Assembly: GCA_964016885.1 (NCBI GenBank)
Contig: OZ024747.1
Span: 32,674,001-32,738,000 of the forward strand
DNA from: Eledone cirrhosa
Taxonomy: Eukaryota
Length of the DNA stretch: 64,000 bases
Direction of reading: 5' to 3'
The notes below the pieces were generated by a model, which saw only the letters and a program-made list of their open reading frames with translations, did not search any database and had not been told where the DNA came from. Both the position numbers and the translations under genes were made by a program. Shown here in pieces: positions 47,500 to 63,842 of this stretch; positions within the stretch are counted from its first letter, which is position 1; every line of letters starts with the position of its first letter.

Positions 47500-47962
47500 A
47501 TATATTTGTTTTGCAAGGTTTTTGATATGAAATCGTGTGTCGAAACAAATATTGTTATACTTGGGGAGGGTCATATTGTTGTAATAATATTGCCAGAAAT
47601 AACAGAACACACTCACTGTTTGGTGAGTTTTCGCTTCTGCATCATATATATCTCCATAGTTAATTTATTTGGCAGTCAATGTTTATCATTGACTGACCAT
47701 CGGTTAAAAATACAGATATAATTATAGATATATAGTCTAACAAAGTTCTTTCGTTACACATCTGCAACATCATGTGCAAAGAAAGAACTTTGTTAGACTA
47801 TATATATATTTATATCTGTATTTTTAACCGATGGTCAATCAATGATAAACATTGACTGCCAAATAAATTAACTATGGAGATATAAAAGATGCAGAAGGGA
47901 AAACCAACCAAACAGTGAGTGTGTTCTGTTATTATTTCTGGCCATATTATTACAACAATATA
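47500..47962. mobile_element. Fold-back remnant of a Penelope-like pseudo-LTR (two inverted 3' ends, no ORF)
   Basis: Inverted arms ~47574-47753 and ~47781-47962. Both carry GAAAGAACTTTG, the HHR 3' half of the neighbouring PLE. The left arm extends through atattgttatacttggggagggtcat, homologous to 48026-48051. Confidence 0.75.
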
Positions 47963-48179
47963 TATATATTTCGTTTCTGAATTTGTTTAGCAAGATTCTT
48001 TATCTGAAAACGTGTGTTGAAACCGATATTGTTATACTTTGGGAGGGTCATGTTGCCAATAAGAAACACACGCACCAGTTGCTTTCACTTCAATTTATTA
48101 TAATAAATTTAGGAATTTAGGAATTTATAAATTTCTGGTTGGTTGGTTGGTTCCACAACCAGATAGTTGTTTATATATT

Positions 48180-48222
48180 GTCAAAGTTCTTTCGTCACAC
48201 ATTCTGTGACCTCTTCAGTGAC
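48180..48222 (-). ncRNA. Minimal type I hammerhead ribozyme (inverted pLTR copy)
   Basis: Minus strand: GTCA-CTGAAGA-G-GTCACA-gaatg-TGTGAC-GAAA-G-aa-C-TT-TGAC. Confidence 0.7.
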
Positions 48223-48239
48223 TGGGGATTCTTTTCTGG

Positions 48240-50125
48240 GGATTCTTCGAAAAGACCATAAAACGGGCAGTGACCCTGTCACGGGACCACCACACGGCCA
48301 GTCTGTGGAGCTAACATTGCTAGTAACTACAGACTGTCCCACTTCCTCTCCCTGATCATACGCCCCATCATTGAAATGTCCCCAGATGTATGTGACAGCA
48401 CGGAGGACCTCCTCAGCAGAATCGGCGAGAGTAACCGATCTAGGGACCTAACAAACTGCATAATAGGTAGTATGGATGTTGTGTTCCTGTATCCATCTAT
48501 TGATGTGGATTTTGCTGTAGAGAAATGCGTAGAAATGATCAGTGAGAGCAATGTTGAGTTCCGTGGGATTGATACCAGTGAGTTGGGATTCCTACTTAAA
48601 CTTACCTATAGTAATAATTACCTAGACACATATGACCTTAGCAACCTGTGCCCTACAAGACCAGCAAGAGGAAGACCACCTACCATTAAGTCGATGGCCA
48701 AGAAAACCCACACAGATAGATGGAACGGGTGGACCAGAGCCATACGGACACCCGAAAACCACGATGAACTGAAGAAAATGATTGCACATGCGGTAGGGGC
48801 CAGCATAAAACTAACCCTTAAGGAACATATGTTCAAATTTAATGGAAAAACATATGCCCAAGAGGAAGGAGCAGCCATTGGTGTTAGCATTGCAGGCGAC
48901 ATAGCTAACTTATTCATGGTATGGTGGGACAGTAGACTTAAACTTAAACTTAAAGAACAATTAGAAGACCCCTTAACCCTGATAATGTACTCCCGCTACG
49001 TTGATGATATAAACATCGTAGTTAAGACACCCCCACTAGAGAACAGTCAGGAACTAGAGAAAAACACAATGGAAAGCATCCTGCAAATAGCTAACTCCAT
49101 CCACCAGAGTATTAGAGTTACTATAGACTACCCAAGTAAACACCCCAACCATCGATTACCTGTACTAGACACAGAGCTCTGGTTAGATACCATTAATAAC
49201 AAAAAACAAATTCTCCATTCCCATTTTGCCAAACCCATGACTTCCAAACATCTGATCCACCGAAACTCAGCTGTTTCGGACCATACCAAAATCAACATAC
49301 TGATTGCGGATTTGGTACGGGTGATGAGAAACGTGTCCCGCATGTGCAACCCCGAAGAACTAGAGAGACACATACAACACTTCATCCACCGTATGCAGTT
49401 CTCTGGTTACAATCAGAGAGATAAAATCAGAGTGTATAGAGGAGCCAGAACCAAATGGGAAAAAATGGTAAATAATGACACAAATGGGACCTGCCCCTTG
49501 TATAGGAGCAAATTTTGGAATAGAATAGAAAGAACTAGGAATAAGACTAATAGAATAAACTCATGGTATGATAGCAATAAATACCAGAGTGTAATGTTCA
49601 TCGATACAACCCCTAGAGGTGAATTAGCTTACAAATTTAGAAGGGCCCTAGATAAACATAAACTCAATATTAAGATAGTAGAAAGACCAGGTACCTCCGT
49701 AAAAACACTTATTAGAAAGACATACCCTTTTCAAAGACCCCCATGTATAGATAAGAAATGTATAACCTGTAAAATAAGCCCCCATATTAACTGCAAAACT
49801 AGAAATGTAGGGTATAGCATAAGATGTACTGAAGGACAATGTAGAGACAGAAATATAGTGTACATAGGTGAGACAGCTCGTAGTGTAGGGGAACGGATAA
49901 GTGAACACTGGCGAGACCTTCAAGATAGTAAAGAATCATCTGTACTCTACCAACATGCTAAAATAGAACATAAGGGTAAATTAGAGAACATAGAAATAAA
50001 AATAGAATCTACACAGAAAAGACGCAATGTTTAGACAAATCACAGAGGCAATAAACATAAAAGAATTACAACCAACATTAAATAGAAAATATGAGTGGAA
50101 CAGCAACATCACAACTTATAATTAA
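48240..50125 (+). pseudogene. PLE reverse transcriptase + GIY-YIG endonuclease (main open segment 48376-50034; frameshifts at ~48290 and ~50018)
   Basis: RT motifs KDHK..P.RP, GSMDVVFLYPSI, GAAIGVSIAGDIANLFM, YSRYVDD, LPVLD. Linker CIDKKCITC (Cx4CxxC). Endonuclease NVGY...YIGET.RS..ER..EH...H...H. Removing one A at ~50018 continues DAMFRQITEAINIKELQPTLNRKYEW to TAA at 50123-50125. Confidence 0.9.
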
Positions 50126-50326
50126 GGACAAAATGAAAACACACACGCACATAGAACAAACAACCAACCGGTAACATGTAAATAAACAAATAAATAAACG
50201 AATATAAACACACACAGACACCCGGATGTGGCGCATGCGCAGACTGAGCATACAACCCACGCACAGAAACAAAATGGCGTAGGACAGAACAAAGGAGAGG
50301 CACAAAAACAAAGAAAAGAATCCCCA

Positions 50327-50369
50327 GTCACTGACGAGGTCACAGAATGTGTGACGAAAGAACTTTGAC
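50327..50369 (+). ncRNA. Minimal type I hammerhead ribozyme in PLE 3' pLTR
   Basis: Stem I GTCA/TGAC, core CTGACGA (50331-50337), extra G, 6-bp stem II GTCACA/TGTGAC, GAAA (50356-50359), minimal stem III, CUU triplet. Confidence 0.75.
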
Positions 50370-50537
50370 AATATATAAACAACTATCTGGTTGTGGAACC
50401 AACCAACCAACCAGAAATTTATAAATTCCTAAATTTATAAATTTATTATAATAAATTGAAGTGAAAGCAACAGGTGCGTGTGTTTCTTATTGGCAACATG
50501 ACCCTCCCAAAGTATAACAATATATATATATATATAT

Positions 50538-55334: not shown

Positions 55335-55444
55335 TATTAACAATTGTTTCATTGATCAGGTGAGTCTAAAGGCCGCTAATCACTCGAAGTTGCGTCACTC
55401 AACCTTAAATACAGGATTTACCTCGGATCAAATCATCAGAATAT
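55335..55444 (-). ncRNA. Type I hammerhead ribozyme with palindromic stem III and long stem II
   Basis: Minus strand: TATT-CTGATGA-T-TTGATC-[~68 nt]-GATCAA-T-GAAA-CAATTG-TT-AATA; ACAATTGT is a perfect palindrome; GUU triplet. Confidence 0.75.
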
Positions 55445-56411
55445 GAGAGAACTCATATACAGCGTACAATCAAAACAACAACACCAATAATAAAATATAA
55501 TGATAAAGAGGTAAAGAAGTTACAGATGTAAAAAGTAAAAAAATAAAGAAATAAAAATAAGTAAAAAAGAAAGAAAATATATGTACAGAATATGATAGTT
55601 GATAATAGTGGTGGTGGTGGTGGTGAGTAAGTGTCTGTATAAGGATGTGGGGTGGAGGTAGTACTATCATGAAAAACAATATTAGATACATACTTACATA
55701 CGTGTAGAGAATGAGAGGTAGTAAATGAGAGATAAAAGATAAAATACAATCAATTAGAAATAAAGTGAGAGATACCAGGATGAGACATAAGGGATAGGGA
55801 TGGATGGGGAGGGGGGTGTGGTGATATGTATGTGGGTTAAATATTTAGCGTGCTGATTATCTTATCTTAATGGGGTTAATGTGGCTTCAGGGAGAGAGTG
55901 AAAGAAAGGTTAGGAGATTTATGATCTAGTGACCAGTCGGTCAGTTGACAGCTAATAACAGTGTGGTGGTATGTATTCCGTACATTAAATCCGGTGGTTC
56001 AGCTCGAATTTTGGGATTGCTGGGTCGAATCATATTGGTTTGAAATTTGAGAACTTGGTAGCTGCTTTGTGCCTACAGAAAATTGATATTTCTATTTTGC
56101 TGTTAAGCAGCATCTTATCGTACTTTAAAATATGGAATAGCTCTATATTGCGAAGTCCGCAGTGGGAGATTCCATTGTTGTAGGCCCTTGCTCCCGATAA
56201 TTTTGAACAGCTAATCCTATATTCCTGGTTTGTGTTCTTAAACTACCTAACTATGGAAAGATCTTGTTGAGTCAAACAACACCGTACGTTAAAACTATCC
56301 ACAATACAGAGTACTCACAGCCTCTAACTAGATTACCTATAACGATAACTTGTTATCCCATGTACCCAGCTCCCACTAGGTTGAGCAACAACCATAACGC
56401 ACGGATCTCAC

Positions 56412-57596: not shown

Positions 57597-58367
57597 ACAG
57601 CAGCCGAACCATTATTATGATCTATAGTAGCAGTTTTGGCAAATTTTTGCTCAACAAAATAATTTGGAGATAATTATAAAGAATTAGTATATCTACCAAC
57701 ATATATATACAGATGCATACCTATGCTAGCAAATATATAGGTTTTGTCTTAGTAACTTTGTGGTTCAATGCAAGGGGATGCAGAACAATTATATGAAAGA
57801 CGTAAGATAAGAAAATTATAAAAATTAACTTACTTACTAAAATTTCACTCCAACTAATTAGTTTCTGAAAGGGAATAAACAAAGTTACTAAGACACAACC
57901 TATATATTTGCTAGCATAGGTATGCATCTGTATATATATGTTGGTAGATATACTAATTCTTTATAATTATCTCCAAATTATTTTGTTGAGCAAAAATTTG
58001 CCAAAACTGCTACTATAGATTATAGTAATGGTTCGGCTGCTGTCTTCTTAACACCCCACTCCTCACTGATTAACCTCGATGTCACGTGATTGATTCTTTT
58101 GAATTTACCACCGACCAAGTAGGCAGTGATTTTTTCAATGTGTTGGAACTTAGTCCATGCTTTGCTTTTTTCCATCCACTGAATTATTTTTGTATAAGTT
58201 CCCTGTGTCCACGCATTGCCTGGGAACTTAGCTGAGAATAGACTTCCCTGATGACGAAAGGATTTCTCCATGTGTTGCTTCGGAAACCATGTTTATTCCC
58301 TTTCAGAAACTAATTAGTTGGAGTGAAATTTTAGTAAGTTAATTTTATAATTTTCTTATTTTACGTC

Positions 58368-58374
<7 letters not shown>
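57597..58374 (+). mobile_element. Non-autonomous HHR-core element, family B, copy 1 (inverted arm 57597-57880 + direct arm 57881-58374)
   Basis: 57597-57760 is the reverse complement of ~57880-58043, and ~57792-57880 is the reverse complement of 58291-58374. Homologous along its length to 63007-63531. Right end in (TA)n. Confidence 0.85.
58248..58296 (+). ncRNA. Hammerhead-like core in family B
   Basis: CTGATGA-CGAA...TTCG-GAAA-C-CATG-TTT; stem II present; proximal stem I not resolved by eye. Confidence 0.5.
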
Positions 58375-58429
<55 letters not shown>

Positions 58430-58438
58430 TAAAATAAC

Positions 58439-58510
58439 AGATTAAAGTTTAAGCAAAGAATCGCTGCTTTCACTCTTAACGGGATCTTCTGAAACTAACA
58501 AAGTCAATCT
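58439..58510 (-). ncRNA. Variant hammerhead (CAGAAGA core), 3' pLTR copy
   Basis: Minus strand: GTTT-CAGAAGA-T-CCC-gttaa-GAG-T-GAAA-GCA-gcgattctt-TGC-TT-AAAC, with distal stem I AGATTGA/TTAATCT. Confidence 0.6.
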
Positions 58511-59433
58511 GTAAACGCAGAAATGGATATTTCAAAAAACGTTACAACCGGAGGAAGACAGGAAGACGATGCCTTGGTTCGTGGAAACGTTCGCCGGCAA
58601 AGAACGGGAAAAAACAAATATAATACGTCATTAATAGGAGCGGTGAAACCAATTACGCGCAAAGACAGAACCACGTTTATGGTATAAAAGAGGTCGTAGA
58701 CTAATGTTCTCTTAGGTGGTTCATAGAGACGTTCTCTGGCAATGAACGAAAAAAACGAAGATAATACGTCATATGTGGAGCGTGGAGAACAATAGCACGC
58801 AAAGACAAAACCACGTAAATGGTATAGCAGAAGTCGTAGACTAAAATTCTTACTAGGATACCGAATGAATCTCCGCTTCAGAGTTAAGAACAAAGTAAAT
58901 AAATACAATACAGAAGTAAAAGAAATAAATAAATACATACACGCAAACAAATACGTACATACGCAAGCATACGCAAAACACTTACCATAGGTATACAAAA
59001 CCACGCACATATAAATATGTGTGTATGTGTATGTATGCGTGTATACAAATAAATAAATAATTATATAAACGTATATAAATAAATACGTATATAATAAGCC
59101 CACACACATACCTACATGTAAATACACGAATGTTCGGAGACGTAAGTCAACCAAAACATGAAGTACACATATACACACACCCTACATACGTATGAACCTG
59201 CATACTCACACAGACGCAAAACTCCCGTATACACATAGCCAAACCATATGTACCAGAATATATAAAATTATACGCCATAACATAAACAATCAAATATACG
59301 TACGAGAAGGTATCCGTACCTTCACAAAACATACGGGTAATATATACATACCTATGCCTAATAAGTAATGGTATAAACAAAACATATACTAAGCTCCCAC
59401 ATCAAGAGGTAAAATATCCACAAATAGATCGTA

Positions 59434-61575
59434 CTATCCGTTAGGGTATAACGTGGGGCTGTAATACAGGAAAGTTTTGTGCAATTTATGTTTACAAGCC
59501 GAAATTGCCTCCGATTTTTTGTTTAAGATGTGGTCTGTGGCATAGAGTATTTCCAGGGCCTCAGCGGCGCAGAGGTCACATGGTCTTTTATTTCCGTTAT
59601 ACGATCTAGCCCTAGCTAGGATCTCCCAGTTTAAATTATATTGGGTGTGGTTGTCTTTTAGACTCCAGATATAAGCTGAAAGTGACGTCATATTCCTTCT
59701 TAGAGGGTAACGAAAAGAATGGGTATGCAAGTAAAGACGCTGCTTGAATCTATTGGCGGTTAACCCTATGTAGGCCCTAAGGGACGTGGGTGTTACAACC
59801 TTACATTTATAGACAATGTTACTAGAGAGGCATTTCCCGGATAGGGGGCAATCGACCCGATTCCTACAATTACAGTTAGTACTAACTACAGGGTTGCACG
59901 TGTTCCTACGGCTAGGTAGTTTAGCTAAATTTGAAGCTGTGATGTTATGTGCAAGGTTAGGAGTCGTAGAGTAAGAAATTTTAATAGTATTTCTATTAAA
60001 AATTTTACTATATTTATGTGTAGGGGGAAAAATGCTTCGTAATAAGGGAAAGAAAGATCTTAGCTAATGGTGTGTCCACCTCCATATTATATGGTGGGTT
60101 ATACCAACAAATACCACGGGTTCTATTTCTTCTAGGTCTATTTTCGTACTCTGTATATGCTACCTTATCGACAACTCCACTTCGAGCAAGAGCTTCATTG
60201 TAATAAGTGGAATGGTCGTTGAAAATACGCTCGTTAGTGGAAAGACGGGAAAGCCTCAACGAAACGTTTCTTACCAGGTTCTTGGTTATGCTGGCAGGAT
60301 GGTTGGAATGCTTACTTATGTAATTAAGCGTATCATTCGGCTTTCTATACGGGTAATACAACCCATTCAATAAATTGAGGGTAACGTCGAGGTAATTAAC
60401 GACCGAGAGATTGGCCTCAACCTGTATAGAGAGGTTGAAGCCTTTAAAGAAGGCTGTGAGTTCTTTTCTGAACCTGTCGCAAGCACGAGGTCCGCACTTA
60501 GTCATGGTCAAAAGACCATCGTCACGGTACAAACCACCGCCCGCGTTGGGGAATTCGTCCTTGATAGAGAAAAGAAGGAAAAGGCCGATAAGATCAGTAA
60601 CCTCCGCAGAATCACTGGCGCCCATACTCACGTCGAATGGGGTACATTTGGATTTTTTAATCCAAATAGAGTCGTCGAAATTAATCACCGACTTTCGGGC
60701 ATTGAGGATGACATCAACTTCGAAATCCTTAACCACTGTGAGTGTTTTAGCGAAATTGATAGCTCTAAGGAGAAGTGGTAAAGTGATGGAGGAGTAGTAA
60801 TTGTTGATGTCGAATTGGATAAAACGGCAATGTTCTTTGTTACATATGCCGTTCAACCAATCAATCACCGCGAAAGAATTGTTCCACAGTGCAAGAGGGG
60901 CCAAACTTCTAATTTCAGGTATAATTCTATCAAGAATCGTTTTACTAAGTCTACCTAAATCGGACTTCGTAGGGTTAATAAGCCGAATAGAGGGGTTGTT
61001 CGGAAAATTGGATTTGTGATCCTTCAGGGTAAAGTGAGGAGAAATAGGGTCCAGAGGTTCGGTCCGGTCCAGGATTTTGAGATCAGATGTGATTTTAAAC
61101 CCAGCATCGTTGATTTCATTGATGACGCACCGATTAGTTTTACGGTAATCCTTAGTTACAGCATTATGTAGTAGTTGATGGTAAGTACTGCGCTCCACTT
61201 GATATCGGTTGCCAGTTTTGTCGGAATGGACATGCACGGCATTAGAATCCTTAATAGAACGAATTCTATTCTTCAGGTCTTGCTGGAAGGAACTTCTTCT
61301 ATTCCGAAATTTGATACTCCGAATGAGTTCCAAGACATCATTTTCGAAGGGTAGCAATGCTGGGTTACACGGGGGGGGGGGGGGGGGTTATTATAGGTTT
61401 TAAATCCAAATTTATCCTGTTTGTTGTCTGCTTTTCGCGGATTATCGAAATAAAAGGCACGCCAACGCAACCTTTTAATGAACGCGTCTGTTTTCTGTAT
61501 CAGGAGTTTTAGGTATGTTTTCCTGATTGGTACGGGTATGTTCTTTGTAGAAATATTCAGATGTTGTTTCTGCAT
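59434..61575 (-). CDS. PLE RT + GIY-YIG endonuclease (~710 aa reconstructed; two homopolymer frameshifts)
   Basis: N-terminus STKNIPVP...FIKRLRWRAF. RT HSDKTGN, LKDHK...IRLINPTKSDLG, FIQFDINNYYSSI, DVSMGASDSAEVTDLIG, GLYRDDG, VNYLDV. Linker CNCRNRVDCPLSGKC (CxCx5C). Endonuclease NIVY...YIGLT..RFKQR; CDLC...E...LN...CKH. Breaks only at the G17 run (61371-61387) and the A5 run near 60028-60032; I found no other in-frame stop. Confidence 0.88.
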
Positions 61576-61722
61576 GATGAATATAAGTCAGTAGAGTGCT
61601 CAACCGAGGGAGCCAAATAGTAATAATAATAAATTTGAAGACTAAAATCCAAAGAGGGCTCGATAAGGATAAATATATATCAAATATATAAGAACCGTAG
61701 AGCAAATATTTATTAAAATAAC

Positions 61723-61794
61723 AGATTAAAGTTTAAGCAAAGAATCGCTGCTTTCACCCTTAACGTGATCTTCTGAAACTAACAAAGTCAATCT
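61723..61794 (-). ncRNA. Variant hammerhead (CAGAAGA core), 5' pLTR copy
   Basis: Same fold; stem II reads CAC/GGG. Confidence 0.6.
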
Positions 61795-62473
61795 GTAAAC
61801 GCAGAAGTGGATATTTCAAAAAACATTACAACCGGAGGAAGACAGGAAGACGATACTTTGGTTCGTGGAAACGTTCGCTGGCAAAGAACGGGAAAAAACG
61901 AATATAATACGTCATTAATAGGAGCGGTGAAAACAATTACGCGCAAAGACAGAACCACGTTTATGGTATAAAAGAGGTCGTAGACTAATGTTCTCTTAGG
62001 TGGTTCATAGAGACGTTCTCTGGCAATGAACGAAAAAAACGAAGATAATACGTCATATGTGGAGCATTGAGAACAATAGCACGCAAAGACAAAACCACGT
62101 AAATGGTATACCAGAAGTTGTAGACTAAAATTCTAACTTGGAGACCGAATGAATCTCCGCTTCAGAGTTAAGAACAAAGTAGCAATAGAAATAAATACAC
62201 GCTCCACATATGATGTATTATCTTCGTTTTTTTCGTTCATTGCCAGAGAACGTCTCTATGAACCACCTAAGAGAACATTAGTCTACGACCTCTTTTATAC
62301 CATAAACGTTGTTCTGTCTTTGCGCGTAATTGTTTTTCACCGCTCCTATTAATGACGTATTATATTCGTTTTTTCCCGTTCTTTGCCAGCGAACGTTTCG
62401 ACGAACCAAAGTATCGTCTTCCTGTCTTCCTCCGGTTGTAACGTTTTTTTGAAATATCCACTTCTGCGTTTAC

Positions 62474-62545
62474 AGATTGACTTTGTTAGTTTCAGAAGAT
62501 CCCGTTAAGAGTGAAAGCAGCGATTCTTTGCTTAAACTTTAATCT
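62474..62545 (+). ncRNA. Variant hammerhead (CAGAAGA core), inverted pLTR copy
   Basis: CAGAAGA at 62493-62499, GAAA at 62513-62516, stem III GCA/TGC, CUU triplet, stem I GTTT/AAAC. Confidence 0.6.
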
Positions 62546-62645
62546 GTTATTTTAATAAATATTTGCTCTACGGTTCTTATATATTTGATATATATTTATC
62601 CTTATCGAGCCCTCTTTGGATTTTAGTCTTCAAATGTATTATTAT

Positions 62646-62727
<82 letters not shown>

Positions 62728-62780: not shown

Positions 62781-62835
<55 letters not shown>

Positions 62836-62837
<2 letters not shown>

Positions 62838-63804
62838 CAGACGTAAAATAAGAAAATTATAAAATTAACTTACTTACTAAAAAATCACTTCCAACTAATT
62901 AGTTTCTCGAATGGAGTAAATATATTTTCCGAAGAAACACATAGAAAATCATTCCGTCATCAGGAAAGTCTTTTTCCGTATAGGTTTCCAGGCATAGCGA
63001 GGACACTGCCTGGAGACCTATACGGAAAAAGACTTTCCTGATGACGGAATGATTTTCTATGTGTTTCTTCGGAAAATATATTTACTCCATTCGAGAAACT
63101 AATTAGTTGGAAGTGATTTTTTAGTAAGTAAGTTAATTTTATAATTTTCTTATTTTACGTCTCTCATATTATTGTTCTGCAACCCCATGCATTGAACCAC
63201 ATTGTTAATAAGACAAAACCTATATATTTGCTAGCATTGATGTGCATCTGTGTGTATATAAATGTTACTAGATATAAATTCCTTATAATTATCTCCAATT
63301 CATTTGTCGAGCAATATTTGGCCATGACTGCTACTATGGTAGTAAGCTGGCCGCTGTCTTAATAACCACTCGCTTTCCACTGATTGACCTCGATGTCACG
63401 TGATTGATTCTTTTTGAATTTGCCACAGACGAGGAGGCAGTGATTTTCTCAATGGCTTGGAATCCAGTCCACGCTTTGCTATTTCCATTCCACTGAATTA
63501 TTTTTTTAATAAGTTTCCAGTGTCCTCGCTATGCCTGGAGACCTATACGGAAAAAGACTTTCCTGATGACGGAATGATTTCCATGTTTTTCTTCGGAAAA
63601 TATATTTACTCCATTCCAGAAACTAATTAGTTGGAAGTGATTTTTTAGTAAGTAAGTTAATTTTATGATTTTCTTATTTTACGTCTCTCATATTATTGTT
63701 CTGCAACCCCATGCATTGAACCACATTGTTAATAAGACAAAACCTATATATTTGCTAGCATTGATGTGCATCTGTGTGTATATAAATGTTACTAGATATA
63801 AATT

Positions 63805-63810
<6 letters not shown>
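62836..63810 (+). mobile_element. Non-autonomous HHR-core element, family B, copy 2: inverted arm (62836-63006) + ~1.5 tandem 525-bp monomers
   Basis: tgcctggagacctatacgg at 63007 and 63532 gives a 525-bp period. 62840-62994 is the reverse complement of 63007-63161. CTGATGA-CGGA...TTCG-GAAA-ATATAT-TT occurs three times. (TA)n on both sides. Confidence 0.88.

Positions 63811-63842
<32 letters not shown>

What the first reader, a model, noticed from the sequence alone, without database searches (positions are those of the whole stretch)
62836..63810. ORF-less 525-nt hammerhead-core monomer in tandem plus inverted arm: candidate retrozyme/circRNA mobilised by Penelope machinery (family B)
Seen: a 525-bp non-coding unit repeated head-to-tail (~1.5 copies) and preceded by an inverted partial copy. 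Each copy carries CTGATGA...GAAA with stem II and a palindromic stem III (AATATATT), and the whole is inserted in (TA)n. Established: non-LTR retrozymes are tandem HHR-containing non-autonomous retroelements that make circular RNAs, and PLEs insert as partial tandems with inverted 5' ends. Inference: a non-autonomous self-cleaving RNA family copied by rolling reverse transcription using the PLE RT/GIY-YIG encoded next door. The PLE-type inverted arm is a structural link between this element and a PLE helper.
Basis: partly seen in the sequence, partly recalled or inferred. Interest (0 to 1): 0.85.

Follow-up and report, generated by a model that had tools for sequence, protein, structure and literature searches.

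The report
Ribozyme repeat hijacking Penelope enzymes
This is one young copy of a protein-less 525-base repeat with a hammerhead-ribozyme fold that occurs thousands of times in this genome; its paired insertion ends and a small predicted hairpin shared with Hydra-type Penelope retrotransposons suggest how their enzyme likely recognises and copies it, while self-cutting and RNA circles remain untested.

Summary
The repeat is real: 1.53 head-to-tail copies of an ORF-less 525-bp unit plus a 177-bp inverted arm, between (TA)n runs. The conserved core closes at GAAA 63095 with palindrome ACTAATTAGT, a ~50-nt covarying stem II and a GUU cut site. The family has 8,268 exact motif hits and at least 10 subfamilies, and no sampled arm is the terminal repeat of an RT gene. 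211 of 230 arms end at two fixed sites 118 nt apart, and 68 of 70 classifiable two-armed insertions use one of each: the Penelope (PLE) 'tail' signature. A small hairpin lies 2-10 nt 3' of these sites in the repeat. It also follows the short end of all nine autonomous Hydra-clade PLE families examined (six strict, three variant), but only 2 of 5 testable long ends. This points to a Hydra-clade helper, not specifically the neighbour. Retrozymes as PLE parasites is already proposed in print. No RNA data were available, so cleavage and circles are unshown, and this copy's first ribozyme is damaged. Verdict: new variant of a known kind.

The parts
62832..63008 (-). Inverted arm (177 bp), ending at the short site S in (TA)n; 2-nt overlap with the direct arm at the junction
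63007..63531 (+). Unit 1 (525 bp, ORF-less, 35% GC) of the direct arm
63532..63811 (+). Partial unit 2, ending at the long site L in (TA)n
63032..63114 (+). Type I hammerhead fold 1: stem I, CUGAUGA (63038), extra C, long stem II, extra A, GAAA (63095), palindromic stem III, predicted cut after 63108 (GUU). C11.1 is changed to G at 63093, breaking the conserved G-C pair
63557..63638 (+). Hammerhead fold 2, G10.1-C11.1 intact; predicted cut after 63632
62887..62969 (-). Hammerhead fold in the inverted arm, sharing the damaging C-to-G change with unit 1
63166..63169 (+). Short start site S (read through here); 104 of 230 family arms end at this position
63174..63197 (+). Predicted bulged hairpin starting 6 nt 3' of S (second copy at 63698-63721); candidate RT docking site
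63284..63287 (+). Long start site L (read through here); 107 of 230 family arms end at this position
63293..63311 (+). Predicted bulged hairpin starting 6 nt 3' of L; candidate RT docking site
62785..62835 (.). Left (TA)n target run
63812..63840 (.). Right (TA)n target run
57597..58376 (.). Older two-armed copy of a sister subfamily (80-85% identical) with compensatory stem II changes, interrupting Hydra-type PLE family D
58422..62651 (-). Neighbouring autonomous-type Hydra-clade PLE, family A (this copy frameshifted). It has two ends 89 nt apart, each followed by the same hairpin type (61702-61659; 61612-61599). Candidate helper class, not shown to be the helper
56370..56385 (+). Same hairpin type after the long end of Hydra-type family D, upstream of its ORF

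Best explanation
This is a protein-less, hammerhead-bearing tandem element with thousands of dispersed copies ending at two fixed sites in (TA)n, most likely copied by the reverse transcriptase-endonuclease of a Hydra-clade Penelope-like element that would dock on a small hairpin beside each site. Shown: family size, the two fixed ends, the one-short/one-long rule in two-armed insertions, read-through of the ribozyme site, and covariation of the ribozyme stems. Inferred: a more-than-unit RNA (uncut multimer, or a circle made by hammerhead cutting and ligation) carries two hairpins, one just 3' of each site. A PLE enzyme, perhaps a dimer, binds both and cuts both strands of a TA run. Each freed DNA end pairs with 3-5 nt of AU sequence at one site and primes reverse transcription. 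The two cDNAs stop at random lengths and join head-to-head by short homology. The hairpin after an arm's own start is not copied, so only copies longer than one unit carry both signals. Own estimates by step: PLE-mobilised 0.93; Hydra-clade helper 0.8; both ends primed on one RNA 0.65; hairpin is the docking signal 0.55; ribozyme cuts in vivo 0.6; circular template 0.5.
For: 8,268 exact ribozyme-pattern hits, control 0. 211 of 230 arms end at two sites, 207 of these running straight into TA or TC repeats. 68 of 70 classifiable two-armed insertions are short+long (binomial p=4e-18); 58 of 83 junctions overlap by 0-7 nt. The same two ends show in unassembled contigs of three runs of one sample, possibly the assembly's own. 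5' ends are scattered; 4 of 230 fall at the cut site against ~4 expected, and 90 of 230 arms span two or more cut sites. Both arms of an insertion share a haplotype: 36 of 47 common variants are in all overlapping units. Autonomous families A and D show the same two-end architecture and Hydra motifs. The hairpin follows S in 72 of 80 and L in 75 of 80 repeat units (overlapping loci counted more than once) and both ends of A and D. It also follows the short ends of four Hydra-type families examined after the descriptor was fixed (H, J, O, P). Background is 1.1-1.7%, and it is absent at the ends of families C, F and G. The ribozyme has the PLE-type marks listed in PMC4209133 (extra base after A9, G10.1-C11.1, palindromic helix III). 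PMC11167929 shows two internal RT starts, cutting of both strands and a needed RNA segment 3' of the starts in a purified PLE.
Against: No RNA evidence of any kind. No autonomous element homologous to the unit was found, so the helper is unnamed. The hairpin descriptor was drawn after seeing A, D and the repeat's relatives. Three later short ends (M, N, L302) pass only with a relaxed bulge and fold as plain hairpins. All 3 testable later long ends (M, N, O) fail, as does a diverged copy of A. Each hairpin alone is weak (z +0.3 to -1.7). The GUU triplet and core-flanking extra bases may give low activity (GUU being a weak site is recalled; one search lists it only as cleavable). 10 of 12 rare variants shared between arms follow mirror geometry, which fits conversion or fold-back copying after insertion as well as twin priming. 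PMC11167929 reports start sites not homologous to the cut DNA, unlike the short AU pairing inferred here.
Confidence: 0.72

Rival explanations
1. Same PLE-driven mobility, but with no circle and no needed cleavage. Uncut transcripts of tandem source loci are the templates; arrays are regrown by DNA-level duplication or template jumps; the ribozyme is weak or protein-assisted.
For: No pile-up of 5' ends at the cut site. GUU in 288 of 292 motifs. Long arrays L145 and L146 show unit-to-unit sharing typical of local duplication or conversion. In the anole PLE, ribozyme mutants still insert in vitro. 8 of 9 Xenopus dimers did not cleave.
Against: Rare variants fixed across three or more units (11 cases) or two same-arm units (11 cases) need a one-unit bottleneck and regrowth. 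Ribozyme stems are kept by compensatory changes across subfamilies 72-92% alike. The circular monomer folds better than shuffles (z -3.6; antisense -0.7).
Confidence: 0.4
2. The inverted arm is made by fold-back or template switching on the first cDNA, with the endonuclease trimming the second end, rather than by a second priming on RNA.
For: 10 of 12 cross-arm rare variants follow mirror register, including the C-to-G change here, which has only 3 hits genome-wide, two of them in this insertion. PMC8557442 attributes tails to endonuclease resolution.
Against: Either arm can be the longer (long-site arm longer in 30 of 68). Single-armed insertions use both sites equally (29 short, 30 long). 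Both sites carry the same RNA hairpin. A purified PLE starts at both tail boundaries.
Confidence: 0.2
3. The unit is only the terminal repeat of a rare autonomous PLE, or a satellite grown locally from such a repeat.
For: Only about 147 insertions plus 30 further loci of several thousand were read. bioRxiv 10.64898/2026.07.22.740005 proposes this route for vertebrate retrozymes.
Against: Same-strand ribozyme spacings are one unit long. Of 321 arm records (duplicates included), 5 lay near a same-sense PLE gene with no TA run between. Three are the window's older copy inserted into D; one (L189) is an insertion at another family's own end; one (L086) has a mid-gene fragment beyond an abnormal end. 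Dispersed copies each have their own fixed ends and random 5' truncation.
Confidence: 0.07
4. A DNA transposon (MITE) whose inverted arms are terminal repeats.
For: Most insertions have inverted outer ends.
Against: Arms run from about 50 to 3,370 bp, the two ends differ by 118 nt, junctions vary, and many insertions have one arm only.
Confidence: 0.01

Closest known systems
Metazoan non-LTR retrozymes (PMC7229834; bioRxiv 10.64898/2026.07.22.740005)
   Same: ORF-less head-to-tail units with one type I hammerhead each, GC under 50%, co-existing with PLEs; PLE mobilisation proposed there.
   Different: Unit 521-571 nt (170-400 nt for the expressed examples; 51-972 bp in the preprint's survey). 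The ribozyme is PLE-like and atypical (about 50-nt stem II, extra C and A beside the core, GUU). Insertions are mostly 1-2 units in two arms with fixed ends. No RNA evidence here.
Hydra-clade Penelope-like elements (PMC8557442, section 11)
   Same: (TA)n targets, hammerhead near the 3' end, partial tandems with inverted 5'-truncated arms, tail at one end; in this genome also the hairpin beside the start sites.
   Different: No ORF; tail 118 nt against the 30-40 bp stated for PLEs; no sequence homology to the Hydra-type families examined.
Non-autonomous Chlamys elements such as MRC1 (PMC8557442, passage)
   Same: ORF-less PLE parasites with pLTRs and multicopy head-to-tail insertions.
   Different: Those resemble their helpers at the 3' end and most of that clade lacks hammerheads; here the resemblance is structural only.
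Anole Poseidon element PAc (PMC11167929)
   Same: Two internal RT start sites that define the tail, both strands cut and extended, RNA needed 3' of the starts, uncut RNA as template.
   Different: PAc is autonomous, its starts lie close together in an AC-rich stem-loop inside the ORF and are reported as non-homologous to the target; here they are 118 nt apart, AU-rich, and each has its own hairpin.

Membership tests
Non-LTR retrozyme | Short tandem units without protein coding, LTR, PBS or PPT | tested here: met
Non-LTR retrozyme | One type I hammerhead fold per unit | tested here: met
   atypical, no Rfam hit
Non-LTR retrozyme | Self-cleavage | not testable with these tools
   needs a transcription assay; unit 1 of this copy has a broken G10.1-C11.1 pair
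Non-LTR retrozyme | Expressed as monomeric circular RNA | not testable with these tools
   no RNA holder listed
Non-LTR retrozyme | Highly self-paired monomer | tested here: inconclusive
   z -3.6, 60% paired for this subfamily; z about -2 to -6 for three others with a cruder shuffle, and their antisense strands also fold well
Penelope-like element (non-autonomous) | Partial tandems with inverted 5'-truncated arm | tested here: met
   83 two-armed insertions among 230 arms
Penelope-like element (non-autonomous) | Optional tail at one end from two start sites | tested here: met
   68 of 70 short+long
Penelope-like element (non-autonomous) | Sequence similarity to an autonomous partner | tested here: not met
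   blastn and nhmmer against flanks and UTRs of the Hydra-type families fetched found none; the sample is incomplete
Autonomous PLE | RT plus GIY-YIG ORF between the repeats | tested here: not met
Hydra clade (neighbouring family A) | RWK-like, DKT, CxCX5C, CxxC/CxH motifs, (TA)n target | tested here: met
   707-aa open frame of an intact relative against the definition in PMC8557442; no tree built
MITE | Fixed terminal inverted repeats and target duplication | tested here: not met
   duplications cannot be read inside (TA)n

The most novel reading that the evidence does not exclude
Hydra-clade Penelope enzymes recognise their RNA by a small bulged hairpin just 3' of each reverse-transcription start. 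A superfamily of ribozyme RNA circles keeps two such hairpins and nothing else of its helper, so that a dimeric enzyme primes both ends of one DNA break on one circle and rolls out two tandem arms. This would be the first defined cis-signal for PLE reverse transcriptase and a direct link between retrozymes and one PLE clade.
Probability: 0.3. Interest if true: 0.8.

Novelty: new variant of a known kind. Interest (0 to 1): 0.55.

Why it matters
How PLE enzymes, the closest relatives of telomerase, choose their RNA and make tandem and inverted insertions is open (PMC8557442 and PMC11167929 say so), and which enzyme moves animal retrozymes is proposed but unshown (PMC7229834). This family offers a minimal 525-nt substrate with two mapped start sites, a candidate docking hairpin and intact Hydra-type helper ORFs in the same genome, so both questions become testable with a few RNA mutants. 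It also shows a class of long-stem hammerheads that Rfam misses although one family alone has over 8,000 copies.

Tried and rejected
Rfam scans found no hammerhead. No RNA holder was listed; this is not evidence either way. The three runs laid were contigs of one sample. Pfam did not name family A, and the homolog search gave mostly unnamed proteins.

Searches for an autonomous partner all failed: flank tblastn, a shorter-stem ribozyme pattern (56 hits; 29 of the 30 fetched were this family, 1 unrelated), nhmmer of a 10-subfamily profile, and follow-up of L056 and L189, both adjacent unrelated PLEs.

A pile-up of 5' ends at the cut site was not seen, nor were matched 5' ends in the two arms (7 of 83 within 20 nt, 6.5 expected). 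Variant sharing could not separate circle from linear template. The first automatic end survey merged clusters and was replaced by per-family tests. Long ends of families H, J and P had no read-through copy in hand, so the hairpin is untested there. The output was cut and repeated in short form. No structure or complex prediction was run.

Full report
Observation. The window ends in a cluster of Penelope-like elements (PLEs) after a ~43-kb 9-bp satellite. The finding is a 525-bp unit (63007-63531), a 98%-identical partial unit (63532-63811) and an inverted arm (62832-63008), all between (TA)n runs. The unit is 35% GC, and its longest ATG-started frame is 53 codons. An older two-armed copy, 80-85% identical, lies at 57597-58376.

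The ribozyme. The conserved fold runs: stem I, CUGAUGA, an extra C, a 6-bp stem II extended by an internal loop and a distal hairpin (about 50 nt in all), an extra A, GAAA, palindromic stem III, and a GUU cut site (after 63108 and 63632). This pattern has 8,268 exact matches in the 3.0-Gb genome, against 0 for the reversed control. Among 292 instances in fetched loci (overlapping loci counted more than once), 287 have the C/A extras, 273 the G10.1-C11.1 pair and 288 GUU. On 15 hand-picked diverse sequences, 97.6% of cells pair and 6 of 14 pairs show two-sided changes (0 of 500 shuffles; slid controls 30-50%); related sequences inflate that test. The extra base after A9, the G-C pair and the palindromic helix III are the marks given for PLE hammerheads in PMC4209133 (parts 1-2 of 4 read). 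Rfam misses the motif. In this copy, unit 1 and the inverted arm carry C11.1-to-G, a variant with 3 hits genome-wide, so only the second ribozyme is intact.

The family. The unit search gave 1,831 candidates; 39 were scored, with full-length hits 95-100% identical. Units between successive ribozymes are 521-571 nt in 10 clusters (80 spacings, filtered to 480-600), and representatives are 72-92% alike. From 153 loci I obtained 230 distinct arms, at most 147 insertions. Of these arms, 104 end at a short site (equivalent to 63169), 107 at a long site (63287) and 19 elsewhere. Of 83 two-armed insertions, 68 are short+long, 1 short+short, 1 long+long and 13 involve an 'other' end (p=4e-18 for 68 of 70). 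The 5' ends are scattered with no excess at the cut site (4 of 230), and 90 arms span two or more cut sites. Part of this sample was chosen for long arms, so lengths are biased. No arm was found to be the terminal repeat of an RT gene. The best candidate, L189, proved to be an insertion at another family's own end. Contigs of three runs of one sample show TA loose ends at both sites.

Template. Units and arms of one insertion share their haplotype (36 of 47 common variants in all overlapping units; within-insertion divergence 1.8%, between 2.7%). In short+long insertions there were 381 single-unit rare variants, 56 shared by all overlapping units (11 of them by three or more), 12 shared by one unit of each arm (10 in mirror register) and 29 other partial patterns, 23 of them in two long arrays. 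This shows one template per insertion and some later conversion or fold-back. It does not decide between circle and linear multimer. The circular monomer folds at z -3.6 (40 shuffles).

Link to a helper. The PLE next door (family A) has Hydra-clade motifs, many copies with 700+ aa open frames and two ends 89 nt apart, but no sequence similarity to the unit. A profile search turned up two distant ORF-less tandem ribozyme families (B', ~480 nt; B'', ~650 nt). Comparing them showed a hairpin just 3' of the ends: lower stem YUC/GAR, a two-base bulge on the 3' side, and an upper stem. It starts 6 nt after both ends of this family, 4-5 nt after both ends of A, 3-6 nt after both ends of D, 4-10 nt in B' and 2 nt after the one end sampled in B''. 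It is absent at the ends of families C, F and G, and background is 70 of 6,000. The descriptor was drawn after seeing these, so I wrote a prediction and tested new Hydra-type families. Short ends: H, J, O and P pass the strict form; M, N and L302 pass only with UA in place of the bulge (background 101 of 6,000). Long ends: M, N and O fail, a diverged copy of A fails, and H, J and P could not be tested. Several of these ends rest on few loci (O and L302 on 1-4). The signal is therefore firm at short ends and uneven at long ends. It points to the Hydra clade but names no single helper.

Mechanism. I commit to PLE-driven twin priming on a more-than-unit RNA, with the hairpins as docking sites (confidence 0.72 for the whole in outline; step estimates are in the best explanation). 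The ends, arms and covariation are shown. Priming, docking, cleavage and the circle are inferred.

Known. PMC7229834 (parts 2-4 of 6 read) defines animal non-LTR retrozymes and names PLEs as likely helpers. bioRxiv 10.64898/2026.07.22.740005 (parts 1-3 of 5 read; supplements closed and may list similar families) argues they derive from pLTRs. PMC8557442 (passages and section 11) describes tails at one end, inverted arms, the Hydra clade and non-autonomous Chlamys elements. PMC11167929 (parts 1-2 of 4) shows two internal starts in vitro. PMC3138052 was seen in passages only. Searches for a hairpin docking signal or twin priming in PLEs (listings only) returned nothing describing either, within an open-access library only. 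Earlier AI notes report the same two-arm geometry for other families; they are not independent support, and their short summaries do not mention the hairpin.

Verdict. A real, young, non-autonomous ribozyme retroelement of a known kind. The ribozyme needed correcting, the Penelope footprint is strong, and there is one new, testable lead. New variant of a known kind; interest 0.55.

Noticed in passing
window 1-~43500: A ~40-kb array of a 9-bp satellite with higher-order repeats; its many long open frames are a by-product of the repeat.
   Followed up: no
window 61740-61780 (-): Family A has a hammerhead-like fold with CAGAAGA in place of CUGANGA, a U-U next to the core and a U at the cut position; Hydra elements are said to carry canonical ribozymes.
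   Followed up: partly
window 55340-55445 (-); loci L081, L089, L117, L118, L131, L201, L210 and others: Many further hammerhead families with 30-95-nt stem II inserts and palindromic stem III, all missed by Rfam in the window.
   Followed up: partly
L201:600-1380, L114, L202, L108 (B'); L210:1880-3034 (B''): Two more ORF-less tandem ribozyme families (~480 and ~650 nt) distantly related to this one. B' has a GUA cut site and would be a better cleavage test. The long-end hairpin of B'' matches that of autonomous family D over 16 nt.
   Followed up: partly
long ends in L044, L095, L103, L132, L133 and family P (L359, L360): 14 of 107 long ends carry a (TC)n run, only in subfamilies with a UCUC template at the site (0 of 60 in the two largest clusters). 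This may be telomerase-like repeated copying at initiation.
   Followed up: partly
L145 (G000:C11:2869007-2872389): A six-unit arm whose rare variants repeat every three units: a trimer copied twice, or a block duplication.
   Followed up: partly
L056:1-620: A separate ~320-nt tandem retrozyme with a canonical short hammerhead and GUA site; its ends lack the Hydra-type hairpin.
   Followed up: partly
window 48026-50523: PLE family C (non-Hydra, near-complete 586-aa frame) with two ends 68 nt apart and its own short hammerhead; a related ORF-less palindrome lies at 47573-47961.
   Followed up: partly
G000:C1:319428456 and about 15 other places: A very young Hydra-type family (M) with many 714-aa open frames of equal score: a good source of active enzyme.
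   Followed up: partly
window 63395-63410 and 63116-63128: A GTCACGTGAT box and a GTAAGT word are conserved across subfamilies; possibly a promoter element and a splice donor (labels recalled).
   Followed up: no
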